Source: Massalongia carnosa (lineage: Eukaryota). Taken from it: 64,000 nucleotides of DNA. Below, one piece after another: positions 35,583-41,864 of this stretch (positions within the stretch are counted from its first letter, which is position 1; every line of letters begins with the position of its first letter). The notes under the pieces are model-generated. The model saw nothing but the letters and a program-made list of their open reading frames with translations. It was not told the origin of the DNA and did not search any database. The stretch is taken from the NCBI GenBank assembly GCA_965645245.1, contig OZ287077.1, positions 2,046,001 through 2,110,000 on the forward strand. Reading direction: 5' to 3'. The position numbers and the translations under genes were made by a program.

Positions 35583-35654
35583 GGCCTGCTGGGTCAGAAA
35601 CCTCTACGTGGTGCAGGCTATCAACACCTCCTCGGAGGTGGCCAATATCTGATC
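35583..35654 (+). ncRNA. HDV-like self-cleaving ribozyme (predicted)
   Basis: P1 GGCCUGC/GCAGGCU with G1-U wobble; P2 GGUCAGAA/U(A)UCUGAUC; P3 ACC/GGU; L3 UCUACGU; P4 CACCUC-CUCG-GAGGUG; J4/2 GCCAA with candidate catalytic C at 35642. Confidence 0.8.
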
Positions 35655-36219
35655 ATCGCCAACGCGGAAGTCCACATCGGTGGCCATTTGAACGATCAAC
35701 GTCTCTACTGATCATTCGTCACCTCGAAGGCACACATACAAAGCCCATTCGTTCGGAATGGCCACACCCCTCAGGCGGAAGCCTTTCACCTCATCGAAAA
35801 AGCCCATTCATTCGGAATGGCCACACCCCTCAGGCGGAAGCCTTTCACCACATCGAAAAAGCCCATTCATTTAGAATGGCCACACTTACACACCTTCATT
35901 TATACGACACCACGATCTGCCCTCGATCACGGCCAGTCTTTCCTCCATTGAATCAAAACGTTTAAAGAGAGAGAACGTTCGTCGAACGTGTGAAAATACA
36001 CTGTCTAGTTCATCGAGTCTATAGGATTCCTAGCGCTTGAAGATCTGGGTGTACGCACCGCGTGGTAGAAGGACGGTCTCGTTGCGTTCAACATGGAACA
36101 AGGGAGTGGTTTTACCCTGGGGGCCAGGTTTCTACTTCCTGACTGTTGTTTATGTACATAAATAGCAGTCACAGCGTCATATCCTTAGGATGCATACGCT
36201 TAATGAATTAATAAAAAAA
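35583..36219 (+). mobile_element. Non-autonomous SINE-like retroposon with a 5' ribozyme (copy 1)
   Basis: Inserted in the copia 3' LTR and absent from the 5' LTR. TSD CCTATTTTCTGT(G) at 35571 and 36220, A-rich tail, internal ~60-bp tandem units. Confidence 0.92.
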
Positions 36220-36719
36220 CCTATTTTCTGTGCATTGGGTCCATCATTCTCCATCCATCCCTCCTATTTTAAACACCTACGCAGACCGCTTTCCCCGGCT
36301 AGAGGTGGTACACCTCCTATCAAGGCAGCTAAACGAGGCCGACGATTAATTCCTGTCGTGCAAACAACAGAAAATCAAACGTGGGCGAGTATAAGACTGA
36401 CGAGTGGAACTAGTCCCAATCCGGACGTTGATCCAATTTCTACCCTAGTCCCTATCATGACACTATTGGCACTTACGGTTGCCCTAACTGAATCGGATTA
36501 GGCTTAGTCCAGGTGCCCAGTCACTCCATGACAAAGATGATCATCTCTTCTTGAATATTTAAGTCTCGAGTTAACTCTCAACTAATGTGACAAATAGATT
36601 CCAAAAACTCATCTTCAGATTTAGTTTTCAACTTTATGATGCACTACATGAGTTTTTAATTTTGCGCGCACGATGTTTGTTTCATTGAAAACATACGTCA
36701 ATAATTATTACTGCAGATT

Positions 36720-38684
36720 CTACCAACCAAAAGTTTCCAAATACATCTCAATTTCTTGTATCTCGTTGCGAAAGACTCGAGACTGTGCTAACGCGCACGC
36801 ATTCGCCAGATCAATCCGCAAGCTTTCTGGCCCGCAGCCAAATACCAAATTTCTCCCCGGACCGGCCAGTTCGTTCGTGATCATCTGCATCGACGGGCGT
36901 CCACGATTCAACTCTCCCATTCGCGACAGTCGAGCTGTGGGGTACGGCGCGGTAGCCTCTACATCTTGTGCCTGCAGATGCTTCTCGCTCGTCCCTGACG
37001 CGGTCAGCTCGGCGGTGCCGTTGGTCTCGGAGCGACCGGTGACGTAGAACTTCATCTGAGCCGTCAGCGCACCGGAAGCATTGGCGATCACTTCGTCCAA
37101 CTCGTTCTCCACCCACGTCAAGGACTCCGCCTCCTTCATGGCCCATACAAGCACCACGCGCGTGACCGTAGAGGGTCTCGTCCGGTTTGCGCGGGGATTT
37201 GTCACATGCATAAGACAAGACAAGCATGCCGAGATTCCCGTGCCACCGGCGACGAGGATCAACGTGTCGCACATGCGCTCGATCGGGCGGCCAATCCCGC
37301 CATAAGGGCCATCGATCCATGCGGAGACGGGGTTCCCGGGATAGCGCGCGGCATACGCGGCGAGACTGTGAGTGAAGCCCGAATGGGTGCGGACCAGAAA
37401 CACCAGAGTCCGGGATTCTTCTTTGGAACCGGCGAAGTGCTCAAGGCGGTCTTCGCCGGCAGGAGAGGGTGCGGTCCACGGGGCCGATGCGATGGTGAAC
37501 GGATGATTTGCGAGCCACGAAATCACGGGGAAGCGCACAAAGCAGTGCTGTGACACGGTGTGTATAAACCCGTTGGGCGCCAGGACTTCGACCCGTGTCA
37601 CGCCGCCTGGATGGTGCGAGAACGACGTCGGCATGCCAACAAGCCATTGGTGACGGATGTTCAGCGGTCGGGTAAACCAAAAGACACGCGCGAGGTACGA
37701 GGCCAGCCAGAGCGCCAGCGTCGCCCATAGATATGCCCACGAATCGAGCACATGATCCGCATGCCAAAAAAGCAATCCGAGATAGGTAACCGCCAACAGG
37801 ACGTGCACGCCGTAAAACGCCTCGTGAAAACGATGCCGAACCCACGGGAGTGAGAACACGCACAGTCCCAACAGCATTGCCATTGGTGGAACGCCGGAGT
37901 ACTGCTTAACACGTTAGCGCAGGGCCAAGAACGACACGTCATGCTCGCGAGGACGGCTTGCCTCGTTTGCTCCCACTGTCCCGTACGCGTAGAATTGCGC
38001 CTTGACATTCGCCGAACCGCCGTCCCGGTAGGACGCGATGAAGAAGGGAATTGTGTGAATCCAGCTCAATGCGAAGCACATCCACGCGACCCATCGGTGA
38101 ACCACGTTGAGCTTCTCATGGCCGATGCCAGTCAACAGAGTGATGAGGTTCGCCTTCCCGGCCAGCGCGATCAGGATCGGGGTGCAAGCGAAGGCCATCA
38201 ATCCGCTTCGAATCGCCAATGGGGGGGACCCATAACCTAGGTGTTCGCGATAGTACGGCCGCACCGCAAAATCGAGCACAGTCACAAAGAGCAGCGTCGC
38301 TAGCAGGAAGCCGAGCATCCCGCACGCCGGCAACCCTAGCAGGTTCACTGGCCAAAGCACGATCTTGCGGTACGAGAGATATCGGCCGGCCGCCAAGACT
38401 TTCTGGCGAAACGTTGGAGCCACCCGCTCCGTTCGCGGCGTGGTGGCCCGACGGTCTTGCCAGCGATGTGCGGCGTGCAGCACCATCAACAGGAAGATGA
38501 TGACCACGTAATAGTACGTGACCCAATGGCCGTACTGAAACTGACGCGCGAAAGGAAGAATCTCCTGTGAGCGGTTTTCTGCTGCATAAAACGCCAGGCA
38601 CATTTCTGCCGCGGCCACGCACTTGGGATCGGAGAGGGGGAGATTGGCCACGGCGGGATCGCCCATGCCCATCGACATGTCCAT
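36720..38684 (-). CDS. Ferric/cupric reductase transmembrane component (FRE family), ~634 aa, 2 exons (38684-37962, 37901-36720)
   Basis: Heme His pairs (HRWV...IHT; HVLL...WH), FAD motif HPFTIAS, DGPYGG, AGGTGIS, CGP and a terminal E.FGW. A 60-nt GC-AG intron (37961-37902) restores NEYSGVPP. N-terminus MDMSMGMG. Confidence 0.92.
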
Positions 38685-39218
38685 GATCGTGTTGCACGGG
38701 AAGACTCGAGCCTTCGTCGCAGTTTCTCACGAAGGCAAGGAATCGCTTCCCACACTCGCGCGACTGAGTGAGACGAAGACTCGGAGGATCCTATGTCGAA
38801 TGAATCACTCGTTCGCCAGACGATTGACAACGAAACCACCGACGACACCGATTCGTGTGACCGCGATGTAAGAAATGGAAGAAATGCCTTGAGTTGATAA
38901 GATGGAGGTGATGATCGCGATTGATTACAAGAACGCGTTTCAAGGTAGTTTTTATATCAGACGACGACTTCGTCATGATCTGCGTCGTCAGTCTTGATCT
39001 TGTATCAGGAAAATGTCGACGAAAATGCCGATGCCGATTCGATTTACTCGAATGCGCGCAAACATGCTCAGGCGATCCGCGTATCGGACCCACTGACGCA
39101 GTCGATCATCGCTAAAGTCAGGGCCAGAACCGTGACCAAGGTTACGGAGAGAACCAAAGCGAGAACTTGAACTAAAACTAGATTTAAGACTAGCACCAGC
39201 GCTAAAATCCCTCCTCCG

Positions 39219-39287
39219 ACAATTCGAGTCGAGATGGCGAGGATGCAGACAATTCGAGTCGAGATGGCGAGGATGCAAACAATTCAT
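39219..39287. repeat. 30-bp tandem duplication (x2.3)
   Basis: ACAATTCGAGTCGAGATGGCGAGGATGCA(G/A) repeated upstream of the reductase. Confidence 0.85.
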
Positions 39288-40749: not shown

Positions 40750-40890
40750 ATGATGATGATAATTCTTATTCCGATGTGGTAGCGGCCGAAGGCCGGGCAA
40801 GTCTATAGGATTATATAATACATGAAAAACCTTTTAAGGAAGAAAAACCAAGTAATCCGATACTTCTACGAATACTCTTCGAGTTCTAAA
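40750..40890 (-). repeat. Probable 3' tail of a non-LTR retroelement (copy 2)
   Basis: Similar to 23170-23310. Confidence 0.4.
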
Positions 40891-40899
40891 GAACAGTTG

Positions 40900-41074
40900 T
40901 GTGACGAAGCGAGATAGTGAATAGATTTCTACCATTGCGCCACCTGTCCTCCTGACCAAAAGGCACAATACTTACTCTAGTCCGCAGACCAAGCTCTATT
41001 CTACTATAACTGGGACTCCTGCTATGTTCGCTGTAGGTCCTGCCGTCCGCACCACGCTTGGTCGAACCGTTACA
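40900..41074. mobile_element. Solo LTR (175 bp)
   Basis: TG...CA termini, TSD AGTTG (40895-99, 41075-79); inverted near-identical copy at 49316-49486. Confidence 0.92.
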
Positions 41075-41137
41075 AGTTGAACGATGACAAGTTAAAGAAA
41101 ATAATCGACGTATTTAATCGTCAATTGTCAATGATAT

Positions 41138-41864
41138 AAATGGGCCTGCTAGGTCAGAAACCTCTACGTGGTGCAGGCTATCAACACCTCCTCGGAGGTA
41201 GCCAATATCTGATCATCGCCAACGCTGAAGCCCACCTCGGTGGCCGTTTGAATGATCAACGTCTCTACTGATTATTGACCACTTCGAAGGCATACAAAGC
41301 CCATTCATTCGGAATGGCCACACCCCTCAGGCGGAAGCCTTTCACCTCATCGAAAAAGCCTCATCGAAAAAGCCCATTTAGTCGAAATGGCCACACCCCC
41401 CAGGCGGAAGCCTTTCAACTCCTCGAAAAAGTCCATTCAGTCGGAATGGCCACACCCCCCAGGCGGAAGCCTCTCACCTCATCGAAAAAGCCCATTCATT
41501 CGGAATGGCCACATTTTCACATCTTCATTTATACGACACCACGATCTGCCCTCGATCATGGCCAGTCTATCATCTATTGAGCCAAAACGGTTAAAGAGAG
41601 AGAATGTTCGTCGAACGTGTGGAGATACACTGTCTAGTTCATCGGGTCTACAGGATGCCTAGCGCTTGAAGATCTAGGTGTATGCACCGCGTGGTAGAAG
41701 AACGATCTCGTTGCGTTCAATATGGAATAAAAGGGAGTGGTTTTACCCTGGGGGCCAGGTTTCCACTTCCTGACTGTTTTTTATGTACATAAATAGCAGT
41801 CACAGCGTTATATCTTAAGTATGCATACGCTTAATAAATAAATAAATAAAATAAATAAAAAAAA
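41138..41864 (+). mobile_element. Non-autonomous SINE-like retroposon with a 5' ribozyme (copy 2)
   Basis: Homologous to 35583-36219. It has its own TSD TCAATGATAT (41128-37, 41865-74), a (TAAA)n/poly-A tail and extra internal repeat units. Confidence 0.92.
41143..41214 (+). ncRNA. HDV-like self-cleaving ribozyme (predicted), copy 2
   Basis: Same fold as 35583-35654. The two differences fall in J1/2 and at the base of P4. Confidence 0.8.

What the first reader, a model, noticed from the sequence alone, without database searches (positions are those of the whole stretch)
35583..41864. Ribozyme-headed non-autonomous retroposon family (two independent insertions)
Seen: two copies of about 640 and 730 bp (35583-36219, 41138-41864), each with its own long TSD and A-rich tail. 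Each begins with 72 nt that fold as a complete HDV double pseudoknot: 7-bp P1 with G1-U wobble, CPEB3-like L3 UCUACGU, P4 hairpin and GCCAA junction. The usual C-G P1.1 pair appears replaced by U-A. In copy 1 the insertion starts at the predicted cleavage site (within 1 nt of TSD ambiguity). There is no coding capacity and no obvious Pol III A/B box. Known: HDV-like ribozymes process the 5' ends of R2, RTE and L1Tc-type retroelements. Inference: a SINE/SIDE-like parasite that self-cleaves out of read-through transcripts and borrows a Tad1-like LINE's machinery.
Basis: partly seen in the sequence, partly recalled or inferred. Interest (0 to 1): 0.82.

Follow-up and report, generated by a model that had tools for sequence, protein, structure and literature searches.

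The report
Ribozyme-headed short retroposon in a fungus
Two copies of a short, non-coding "copy-and-paste" element each begin exactly at the predicted cut site of a hepatitis-delta-type self-cutting RNA motif; the design is known from insect and trypanosome elements but seems undescribed for fungal mobile DNA.

Summary
Two roughly 90% identical, ORF-poor elements (35583-36219; 41143-41864) each have their own target-site duplication (13 and 10 bp) and an A-rich tail. Copy 1 sits in the 3' LTR of a Copia whose intact 5' LTR is a perfect empty site.

The first 72 nt form P1 (7 bp), P2 (7), P3 (3) and P4 (6), with C35642 at the catalytic position. Rfam scores it below threshold (RF02682, 29.9 bits against 44). 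However, 26 unrelated metagenomic sequences with the same core, including its AU in J1/4, covary strongly in P1, P2 and P4, and Rfam misses nearly all of these as well.

In contigs of four public runs, 20 further copies with unlike flanks break off exactly at G35583, the predicted cleavage site. Fold geometry alone is at chance level. The sequence core and its position carry the case.

Best reading (0.72): a bipartite, SIDE-like non-autonomous non-LTR retroposon, recently active in a probable ascomycete. It is cut out of read-through transcripts by its head and copied by an unidentified LINE.

Cleavage, expression and the "Tad1-like" partner are untested. It is a new member of a known kind.

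The parts
35571..35583 (+). Left TSD of copy 1 (CCTATTTTCTGTG). Its last G is ambiguous with the element's first G.
   Evidence: single copy of this site in the 5' LTR at 30427-30439
35583..35654 (+). HDV-like ribozyme head of copy 1: P1 35583-89/35613-19, P2 35592-98/35648-54, linker A35599, P3 35600-02/35610-12, L3 35603-09, J1/4 AUCAA 35620-24, P4 35625-40, J4/2 35641-47
   Evidence: RF02682 29.9 bits, model 1-74; model R1 51.4 bits
35642..35642 (+). Predicted catalytic cytosine (C75 equivalent)
   Evidence: aligned to the C of GGC(U/C)AA in RF02682, RF00094 and R1
35655..35739 (+). Unique region after the ribozyme, the most variable part between the two copies (72 of 85 identical)
35740..35885 (+). 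59-nt tandem repeat, 2.5 units, each holding a CCATTC...GAATGG hairpin
35886..36199 (+). 3' body. The last 173 nt fold better than shuffles (z -2.96), with a 13-bp hairpin at 36140-36171.
36200..36219 (+). A-rich tail of copy 1 (TAA-type units, then A7)
36220..36232 (+). Right TSD of copy 1
41128..41137 (+). Left TSD of copy 2 (TCAATGATAT)
41138..41142 (+). Five extra letters (AAATG) between the TSD and the element. Likely non-templated addition at the 5' junction.
   Evidence: junction type described for R2 in PMC3774820
41143..41214 (+). Ribozyme head of copy 2. It has two changes from copy 1: G>A at 41151 (J1/2) and G>A at 41200, which breaks the closing pair of P4 at a G invariant in all 26 class members.
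   Evidence: (45.1 bits)
41296..41513 (+). 59-nt repeat array of copy 2 (about 3.7 units, one with a 14-nt duplication)
41831..41864 (+). A-rich tail of copy 2 ((AATA)n, then A8)
41865..41874 (+). Right TSD of copy 2
35296..36275 (+). 3' LTR of an intact Copia (gag 30557-31390, pol 31466-35113), host site of copy 1, same strand. A TATA-like box at 35466 lies 117 nt upstream of G35583.
30161..30482 (+). 5' LTR of the same Copia, which serves as the empty-site control (site at 30427-30439)

Best explanation
This is a bipartite (SIDE-like) non-autonomous non-LTR retroposon whose first 72 nt are an HDV-like self-cleaving ribozyme.

Inferred mechanism:
1. Source copies have no recognisable promoter of their own. 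They are transcribed as part of longer transcripts. Copy 1, for example, lies 117 nt downstream of a TATA-like box in a Copia LTR, on the same strand.
2. The head folds into the nested double pseudoknot and cuts 5' of G35583, with C35642 as the catalytic base. This removes all upstream flank and gives the RNA a uniform 5' end.
3. A LINE reverse transcriptase supplied in trans recognises the structured 3' region and/or the A-rich tail. It copies the RNA by target-primed reverse transcription at a staggered break, which produces the 10-13 bp TSDs.
4. The cDNA runs to the cleaved 5' end. The 5' junction is then sealed by 1-nt microhomology or after addition of non-templated letters.

Shown: the anatomy, the TSDs, the empty site, the multiplicity of copies and their uniform 5' end.
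Inferred: transcription source, cleavage and the partner.
For: (1) Retroposon anatomy is confirmed.
- The TSDs are exact, the tails are A-rich, and an internal empty site exists.
- The element has no conserved ORF. The 126-127-aa stop-free frames have no Pfam hit, and between the copies they match only through the repeat peptides.

(2) The family is large, and its 5' end is uniform at the predicted cleavage site (contigs laid: X1 2757, X4 163, X6 2, X7 2).
- Loose ends lie exactly before 35583 in 13, 5, 1 and 1 records.
- In X1 and X4 these records have unlike upstream flanks (agreement 0.42 and 0.52).
- X6 record 14 and X7 record 16 are 99% identical copies with their own 13-nt TSDs.
- Empty-site joints skip from 35571 to 36221.

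(3) The ribozyme reading has three supports.
- RF02682 aligns end to end at 35583-35654 and RF00094 at 35581-35656. RF02682 is the top sub-threshold hit of the whole window.
- A metagenome scan for the core motif gave 29 distinct sequences. Of these, 26 have a P1 of 6-7 bp at the right distance, with 20 different P1 strands (this count includes the shared strand of the two window copies).
- On those 26 sequences, 92.8% of cells pair, against 62.4% in shuffles (0 of 500 reach it) and 29-40% when slid. Double changes occur in 6 of 7 P1 pairs, 6 of 6 P2 pairs and 4 of 5 P4 pairs.
- A model built from them without any window row scores the window heads 51.4 and 45.1 bits.

(4) The head is better kept than the body.
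- It is 70 of 72 identical between copies, against 491 of 546 elsewhere (P = 0.02).
- None of the 27 listed variant positions inside the element falls in the head.

(5) The junction behaviour matches what PMC3774820 describes for ribozymes that cut at the element's own 5' end: variable junctions, non-templated letters and microhomology (abstract and passages).

(6) The insertion is recent: the host Copia's LTRs have no substitutions.
Against: - There is no biochemical or RNA evidence of cleavage.
- Rfam scores are below gathering (29.9 and 24.1 bits against 44).
- P1.1 can form only one U-A pair, because J1/4 is AU rather than GG.
- A structure-only descriptor is at chance level.
- The R1 score is partly circular, because the motif used to collect its training set came from the window.
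- The conservation statistics are modest. In addition, 18 variant rows and 209 loose-end rows were not displayed.
- A 1-nt ambiguity (G35583 or G35584) remains in 3 of the 4 resolved insertions.
- No partner LINE was found in the window.
- A uniform 5' end would also be produced by a fixed transcription start.
Confidence: 0.72

Rival explanations
1. The head is HDV-derived, but today it acts mainly as something else, or is catalytically dead. It could be an internal Pol II promoter or an RNA-stabilising or RT-binding fold, as with the dual Pr77/L1TcRz of trypanosomes. The uniform 5' end would then come from a transcription start at G35583.
For: - P1.1 is weak, with AU in J1/4.
- A fixed start site would also give uniform 5' ends.
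- Dual promoter and ribozyme use of the same 77 nt is documented for L1Tc/NARTc (PMC3383444, abstract in the listing).
Against: - The AU J1/4 core is shared by 26 covarying natural sequences, one of which passes Rfam's threshold.
- The catalytic C and all four helices are intact in the young copy 1.
- A coincidence of a start site with model position 1 would be unexplained.
Confidence: 0.13
2. The copies are repeated retro-pseudogenes of one host non-coding RNA gene, which itself starts with a ribozyme or is otherwise processed. A LINE would have copied it many times from a single master, so it would not be a self-propagating parasite family.
For: There is no ORF and no promoter motif. The master or partner was not seen.
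Against: - Many variant positions are shared by tens of contigs.
- Several internal-deletion and repeat-number forms exist (tables 3 and 5).
- Copies 1 and 2 differ by 10%, while copies in other runs are 99% like copy 1. This indicates several source lineages over time.
Confidence: 0.08
3. The HDV-like fold is a chance resemblance in an ordinary SINE-like element.
For: The structure-only descriptor hits 5 places in the window against 3.6 expected. Rfam scores are below gathering.
Against: - The match includes the conserved core letters (L3, CAAC, GGCCAA), not only the helices.
- For the one family RF02682, the E-value is about 0.14/4227 for the window.
- Model position 1 equals the independently defined element start.
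- The head is the best-conserved part of the element.
Confidence: 0.05

Closest known systems
R2 SIDEs (short internally deleted elements) of Drosophila (PMC3414825, abstract; PMC3774820, passages)
   Same: They are non-coding, consist only of a 5' HDV-like ribozyme plus a LINE-recognised 3' end, are cut out of a co-transcript, and are parasitic on a LINE.
   Different: SIDEs insert site-specifically in 28S rDNA and ride Pol I transcripts. This family is dispersed (LTR, intergenic and AT-rich sites), has variable 10-13 bp TSDs and A-rich tails, and its partner is unknown.
NARTc/L1Tc (ingi clade) with the Pr77/L1TcRz head, trypanosomatids (PMC3185411, PMC3383444, PMC4035085; abstracts)
   Same: It is a dispersed non-autonomous element sharing the first ~77 nt, an HDV-like ribozyme, with its LINE, and it has a poly(A) tail and TSDs.
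   Different: The host kingdom differs. Sequence similarity was not tested, and promoter activity of the head was not tested here.
Bipartite non-autonomous LINEs of RTE, Ingi and R2 (Kojima 2018, PMC5786205, passage)
   Same: The architecture is a LINE 5' end (with ribozyme) fused to a LINE 3' end. This is the best formal category for the element.
   Different: That paper lists six LINE clades with 5' ribozymes (R1, R2, R4, RTE, Ingi, LOA). Which clade serves here is unknown, and a typical ascomycete clade such as Tad1 would be a seventh.
Fungal HDV ribozyme variants (Li & Breaker 2017, PMC5640933, section 7 and Table S1 read)
   Same: These are HDV-class ribozymes in ascomycetes, and they share the extra nucleotide between P2 and P3 (A35599).
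   Different: The published variants have C-G at the cleavage site and an E-loop in P4. This one has G-U and a plain 6-bp P4. That paper reports 'widely variable gene associations' and does not contain the word stem 'retrotranspos'. Its Stockholm alignments could not be read.
Rfam RF02682 HDV-F-prausnitzii and tRNA-adjacent (theta-like) HDV-like ribozymes of phages and bacteria (PMC10879173, passages)
   Same: L3/P3 are identical (CCUCUACGUGG), and CAAC and GGCYAA are shared. The window head aligns end to end with the model.
   Different: J1/4 is AU, not AGG. The host is a eukaryote, and the role is at a retroposon 5' end rather than in tRNA or mRNA processing.

Membership tests
HDV-like self-cleaving ribozymes | Nested double pseudoknot: P1 of ~7 bp starting at the cleavage site, P3 of 3 bp inside it, P2 crossing P1, and P4 hairpin | tested here: met
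   P1 7/7, P2 7/7, P3 3/3 and P4 6 bp in copy 1. The geometry is the same as in 26 covarying relatives.
HDV-like self-cleaving ribozymes | Catalytic cytosine in J4/2 | tested here: met
   C35642 aligns to the C of GGC(U/C)AA in RF02682, RF00094 and R1.
HDV-like self-cleaving ribozymes | P1.1 (usually two G-C pairs between L3 and J1/4) | tested here: inconclusive
   J1/4 is AU, so only one U-A pair is possible. The same AU occurs in 26 covarying natural sequences, although this was forced by the search pattern. PMC3774820 reports R2 ribozymes with disrupted P1.1 and a J1/4 of 0-2 nt.
HDV-like self-cleaving ribozymes | Score at or above Rfam's gathering threshold for an HDV family | tested here: not met
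   Scores are 29.9 and 24.1 bits against 44. However, only 1 ribozyme in the 20 loci scanned passes (19 of them hold well-formed class members).
HDV-like self-cleaving ribozymes | Mg2+-dependent self-scission 5' of the first P1 nucleotide | not testable with these tools
   The only indirect support is that 20 independent copies end at G35583.
Non-autonomous non-LTR retroposon (bipartite non-autonomous LINE / SIDE-like) | Variable-length TSDs, an A-rich 3' tail and a precise empty site | tested here: met
Non-autonomous non-LTR retroposon (bipartite non-autonomous LINE / SIDE-like) | No coding capacity | tested here: met
   There are no Pfam hits, and open frames are not conserved between the copies.
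Non-autonomous non-LTR retroposon (bipartite non-autonomous LINE / SIDE-like) | 5' and 3' ends shared with an autonomous LINE | not testable with these tools
   No genome is held and no LINE lies in the window. One 3231-nt contig in X1 shares 35589-35702 and 35906-36043 and then runs on unlike the element. Its sequence could not be obtained.
Canonical SINE | Head derived from tRNA, 7SL or 5S with an internal Pol III A and B box | tested here: not met
   There is no A box and only a 2-mismatch B-like word, and internal T4 runs are present (box consensus recalled from memory). ARAGORN finds none. No such Rfam family matches at E<=10.
Fungal HDV variant class of Li & Breaker 2017 | C-G at the cleavage site; E-loop in P4; extra nucleotide between P2 and P3 | tested here: not met
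   The cleavage-site pair is G-U and P4 is a plain hairpin. Only the extra nucleotide (A35599) is present.
R2 SIDE | Site-specific insertion in 28S rDNA | tested here: not met
   Four resolved insertions lie in four unrelated sites.

The most novel reading that the evidence does not exclude
A LINE lineage of ascomycete fungi, outside the six clades so far reported to carry 5' ribozymes, uses an HDV-like ribozyme to free itself and its short parasites from read-through transcripts. On this reading, many of the 'orphan' HDV ribozymes catalogued in fungal genomes would really be retroposon heads. The 99%-identical copies seen in runs labelled as several different organisms would then reflect very recent activity, or spread among lichen-associated fungi.
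Probability: 0.3. Interest if true: 0.7.

Novelty: new member of a known kind. Interest (0 to 1): 0.55.

Why it matters
HDV-like ribozymes are known in fungi, but they have been reported with 'widely variable gene associations' (PMC5640933). This locus gives one of them a concrete job: defining the 5' end of a young, abundant retroposon.

The locus is also convenient for experiments. It is recent, has a built-in empty-site control, and includes one intact head alongside one naturally mutated head.

It offers a clean system for three questions:
- whether ribozyme processing, rather than an internal promoter, lets promoter-less elements exploit LTR and gene transcripts in fungi
- which fungal LINE supplies the machinery
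- whether an HDV-like core with only a U-A P1.1 is active

My four literature searches found ribozyme-headed non-autonomous elements in insects, trypanosomatids and other animals. They found none in fungi.

Tried and rejected
- Whole genome: none is held for this window, so copy number and the partner LINE could not be searched directly.
- RNA evidence: no RNA holder was listed. All four runs laid were contigs, which cannot show RNA ends.
- Metagenome scan for the exact 24-nt family core: 0 hits. The family is therefore absent from that collection, and the second scan found only the wider ribozyme class.
- Thirteen loci with the ribozyme right after an A10 run looked like retroposons. They proved to be one AT-rich (24-31% GC) syntenic locus without a reverse-transcriptase ORF, so I dropped them as a LINE lead.
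- L014, L028 and L029 (P1 only 4-5 of 7) were left out of alignment A4 before counting.
- Rfam gathering scan of the window: 0 matches.
- Earlier-findings look-ups by sequence, by place and by five words: nothing.
- Protein atlas on the opine-dehydrogenase-like gene gave mostly bacterial clusters and no taxonomy. The P450 gave Ascomycota clusters, which is a lead only.
- The minimum-free-energy fold of the head is unremarkable (z -1.29), as expected for a pseudoknot.
- Papers not held: PMC3256349, PMC3308841 and PMC3159031. What I say about Webb 2009, Webb & Luptak 2011 and Ruminski 2011 therefore comes only through citing papers.
- The Stockholm alignments of PMC5640933 cannot be read here and may bear on whether this head type is already catalogued.
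- The CPEB3 model gave no match at E<=10.

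
Full report
**What is there**

The window is a transposon-rich stretch of a eukaryote. It holds two Copia elements, a Tf2-like Gypsy, several pogo/Tc5-type DDE transposases, a Tc1-like element and a MULE. Host genes include two ferric reductases, an MFS transporter, a P450, an opine-dehydrogenase-like gene and a methyltransferase. The clusters nearest to the P450 are from Ascomycota, which is a lead and not proof. 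No whole genome is held for the window.

Copy 1 is 35583-36219 (637 bp) and copy 2 is 41143-41864 (722 bp). They are 88-90% identical and differ mainly in the number of an internal 59-nt tandem repeat. Each has an A-rich tail built of TAA/AATA units and then an A run.

Each also has its own exact TSD: CCTATTTTCTGTG (13 bp) for copy 1 and TCAATGATAT (10 bp) for copy 2. Copy 2 carries five extra letters (AAATG, 41138-41142) between the TSD and the element.

**The insertion is proven inside the window**

Copy 1 lies in the 3' LTR (35296-36275) of an intact Copia, on the same strand. The 5' LTR (30161-30482) carries the target sequence once and uninterrupted. With the element and one TSD removed, the LTRs are 322 of 322 identical apart from one 9-bp indel. 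The Copia is therefore very young, and the retroposon insertion is younger still.

**The element is non-coding and is not a Pol III SINE**

Stop-free frames of 126-127 aa exist. They have no Pfam match, and between the copies they align only through the repeat-encoded peptides. This is expected when a 59-nt unit, which is not a multiple of three, varies in number.

There is no A box. Only a 2-mismatch B-like word is present, and the element contains internal T4-T6 runs (the box consensus is recalled from memory). ARAGORN finds no tRNA-like head. In an E<=10 Rfam scan of the head region, the only other rows are four weak snoRNA-family rows on the opposite strand and an upstream plastid-UTR row. 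None of them is a tRNA, 5S or 7SL family.

**The head**

The first 72 nt read as follows:
- P1 GGCCUGC/GCAGGCU, 7 bp, with a G-U pair at the cleavage site
- J1/2 UG
- P2 GGUCAGA/UCUGAUC, 7 bp, crossing P1
- one linker A
- P3 ACC/GGU
- L3 UCUACGU
- J1/4 AUCAA
- P4, 6 bp with a CUCG loop
- J4/2 GCCAAUA, with C35642 where the catalytic cytosine belongs

Rfam's gathering scan finds nothing in the window. With relaxed thresholds, RF02682 (HDV-F-prausnitzii) aligns end to end at 35583-35654 (29.9 bits; gathering score 44) and RF00094 aligns at 35581-35656 (24.9 bits). Over the whole window and all 4227 families, the RF02682 hit is the best sub-threshold match (E 0.14). Copy 2 is also listed (24.1 bits).

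L3 and P3 equal the RF02682 consensus.

**Is the fold more than chance?**

The fold alone is not. A structure-only descriptor that I wrote hits five places in the window, against a mean of 3.6 in 40 dinucleotide shuffles. It requires a 7-bp P1, a 3-bp P3, an L3 of 7-8 nt, a P2 of at least 6 bp, a P4 of at least 4 bp, and a C early in J4/2.

The case rests on two other things: the conserved core letters, and the position of the motif.

**The core belongs to a real, covarying ribozyme class**

An exact 24-nt core search of the metagenome collection found nothing. A looser pattern (L3/P3, N8, AUCAAC, a gap, GGCYAA) found 35 matches in 33 loci, which reduce to 29 distinct sequences.

The pattern did not constrain the 5' strand of P1, P2 or P4. 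Even so:
- 22 of the 29 have a perfect 7-bp P1 at the right distance, 4 have 6 of 7, and 3 (L014, L028, L029) have 4-5 of 7. I dropped those three before counting.
- Counted with the two window copies (which share one strand), there are 20 different P1 strands and 16 different P2 strands.

On the 26 retained sequences:

| Measure | Given structure | Controls |
|---|---|---|
| Cells forming standard pairs | 92.8% | 62.4% in shuffles (0 of 500 reach it); 29-40% when partners are slid |
| Covariation score | 0.771 | 0.212 |

Changes on both sides occur in 6 of 7 P1 pairs, 6 of 6 P2 pairs, 1 of 3 P3 pairs and 4 of 5 P4 pairs.

Only one ribozyme in 20 loci scanned reaches Rfam's threshold (L010, 44.8 bits). 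Rfam therefore misses this class generally, and the window's sub-threshold score says little.

A covariance model built from the 26 sequences, without any window row, scores the window heads 51.4 bits (E 5e-11) and 45.1 bits. This is partly circular, because the pattern came from the window. What is independent is that the window's P1, P2 and P4 fit the class geometry.

The AU in J1/4 leaves only a U-A pair for P1.1, and the class shows it to be a natural variant. Whether it is active remains untested. PMC3774820 reports that R2 ribozymes tolerate a J1/4 of 0-2 nt and disrupted P1.1 (passages).

**Position: the family's 5' end is the predicted cut site**

Thirteen public runs from 11 studies hold part of the stretch, one of them labelled lichen metagenome. 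None is on record as RNA.

I laid the contigs of four runs on 35300-36500 at 80% likeness. The numbers laid were X1 2757, X4 163, X6 2 and X7 2.

- Loose ends lie exactly before 35583 in 13, 5, 1 and 1 records. In X1 and X4 the upstream flanks are heterogeneous (agreement 0.42 and 0.52), which means many independent insertions ending at the same base.
- Loose ends behind 36219 (36214 in X7) mark the tails.
- Two long contigs (X6 record 14, 7074 nt; X7 record 16, 2051 nt) carry copies 99% identical to copy 1. They have one repeat unit fewer, and each has its own 13-nt TSD.
- Joints skipping from 35571 to 36221, with 12 shared letters, are empty-site forms.

In three of the four resolved insertions, one G is shared between the TSD and the element, so the start is G35583 or G35584. 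The modal break at 35583 across unlike flanks favours G35583. Note that 209 loose-end rows were not displayed.

Model position 1 of RF02682 and of R1 is this same base.

**Conservation**

The head is 70 of 72 identical between the two window copies, against 491 of 546 elsewhere (binomial P = 0.02). Of the 27 displayed variant positions inside the element, none lies in the 72-nt head and 7 lie in 35666-35718. Eighteen rows were not shown.

Copy 2's head has G>A at 41200. This breaks the closing pair of P4 at a G that is invariant in all 26 class members. Such decay is expected, because an inserted copy no longer needs its ribozyme.

**How it most likely works**

1. *Transcription (inferred).* Source copies are read as part of longer transcripts. 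Copy 1 lies 117 nt downstream of a TATA-like box in the LTR. A review (PMC6765202, passage) notes that ribozyme-headed RTE and Baggins elements lack promoters and are transcribed from introns or from just downstream of LTR elements.
2. *Cleavage (inferred from the ribozyme family).* The head cuts 5' of G35583 and discards the flank.
3. *Reverse transcription (inferred).* A LINE enzyme acting in trans uses the 3' end, giving 10-13 bp TSDs. The last 173 nt fold better than shuffles (z -2.96), with a 13-bp hairpin at 36140-36171.
4. *5' junction (anatomy shown, mechanism by analogy).* The 1-nt overlaps and copy 2's extra AAATG match the variable, microhomology-primed junctions described for R2 elements whose ribozyme cuts at the element's own 5' end (PMC3774820, abstract and discussion passages).

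**The partner**

No non-LTR reverse transcriptase or endonuclease is present among the 63 ORFs scanned. One 3231-nt contig in X1 shares 35589-35702 and 35906-36043 with the element and then continues for about 2.8 kb of unlike sequence. It may be a longer relative, but its sequence could not be obtained. 'Tad1-like' therefore remains a guess.

**Comparison with what is known**

The design is established in three settings:
- R2 SIDEs (PMC3414825, abstract)
- NARTc/L1Tc with Pr77/L1TcRz (PMC3185411, PMC3383444, abstracts)
- 'bipartite non-autonomous LINEs' of RTE, Ingi and R2, with six LINE clades known to carry 5' ribozymes (PMC5786205, passage)

HDV ribozymes are also known in fungi. There are 11 canonical examples and about 220 variant examples in 26 species, and two were shown to cleave. 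Their gene associations are described as 'widely variable', and retrotransposons are not mentioned (PMC5640933, section 7 and Table S1). The present head shares only the extra P2/P3 nucleotide with that variant class.

Four literature searches turned up no fungal ribozyme-headed retroposon.

**Verdict**

This is a new member of a known kind, of moderate interest.

Noticed in passing
window 5599-5672 (-): A third HDV-like motif, unrelated to the family, scores 25.8 bits (E 1.4e-4) with model R1. It has a perfect P1 (CCUGAAC/GUUCAGG), a P2, and a P3 of ACU/AGU. It lacks the GC of GGCYAA, so it has no catalytic C. It has no Rfam match and is single-copy in the window. It lies about 180-250 nt upstream of a possible gene start on the same strand. 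It may be a decayed or variant ribozyme, or a chance match.
   Followed up: partly
window 30161-36275: This is an intact, very young Copia. The gag and pol ORFs are open, and the 322-bp LTRs are identical except for a 9-bp indel. Its only other blemish is the copy-1 insertion.
   Followed up: yes
L002, L003, L004, L006, L009, L010, L022, L026: Nine HDV-like ribozymes with the same core start at the base right after a tRNA 3' end inside dense tRNA arrays (up to 30 tRNAs in 12 kb). The context resembles that of published theta ribozymes, but here a full P4 is present. Only one of them passes Rfam's threshold.
   Followed up: partly
L007, L008, L012, L013, L015, L017, L018, L021, L024, L025, L027, L028, L033: In AT-rich contigs (24-31% GC), a conserved ribozyme (P1 mostly CCUGAAC) sits directly after an A9-A12 run. 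Five of the loci are the same syntenic locus at 97-99% identity. No RT ORF lies downstream. The organism and the role are unknown.
   Followed up: partly
window 36212 -> 35583 (run X1, table 5): One contig joins the element's tail directly to the element's first base, giving a head-to-tail arrangement. This could be a tandem insertion or an insertion into another copy's tail. In such an array the downstream ribozyme would also define the upstream unit's 3' end.
   Followed up: no
runs X6 and X7 (table 8): Copies 99% identical to copy 1 occur in runs labelled as other organisms. By contrast, the two copies in this window differ by 10%. Possible causes are the same or a closely related fungus in several samples, very recent activity, or transfer. 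These cannot be told apart here.
   Followed up: no
L014:229-284 (-) and 1058-1241 (-): A core-motif match with a poor local P1 lies about 770 nt downstream of a fragment of eukaryotic 28S rRNA that breaks off at model position 2619. This might be an rDNA-inserted element with a long J1/2.
   Followed up: no
window 35740-35885 and 41296-41513: The internal 59-nt tandem repeat varies in copy number between copies and among contigs of X1 (several joints at 35906). Each unit holds a 6-7 bp hairpin. Its function is unknown.
   Followed up: no
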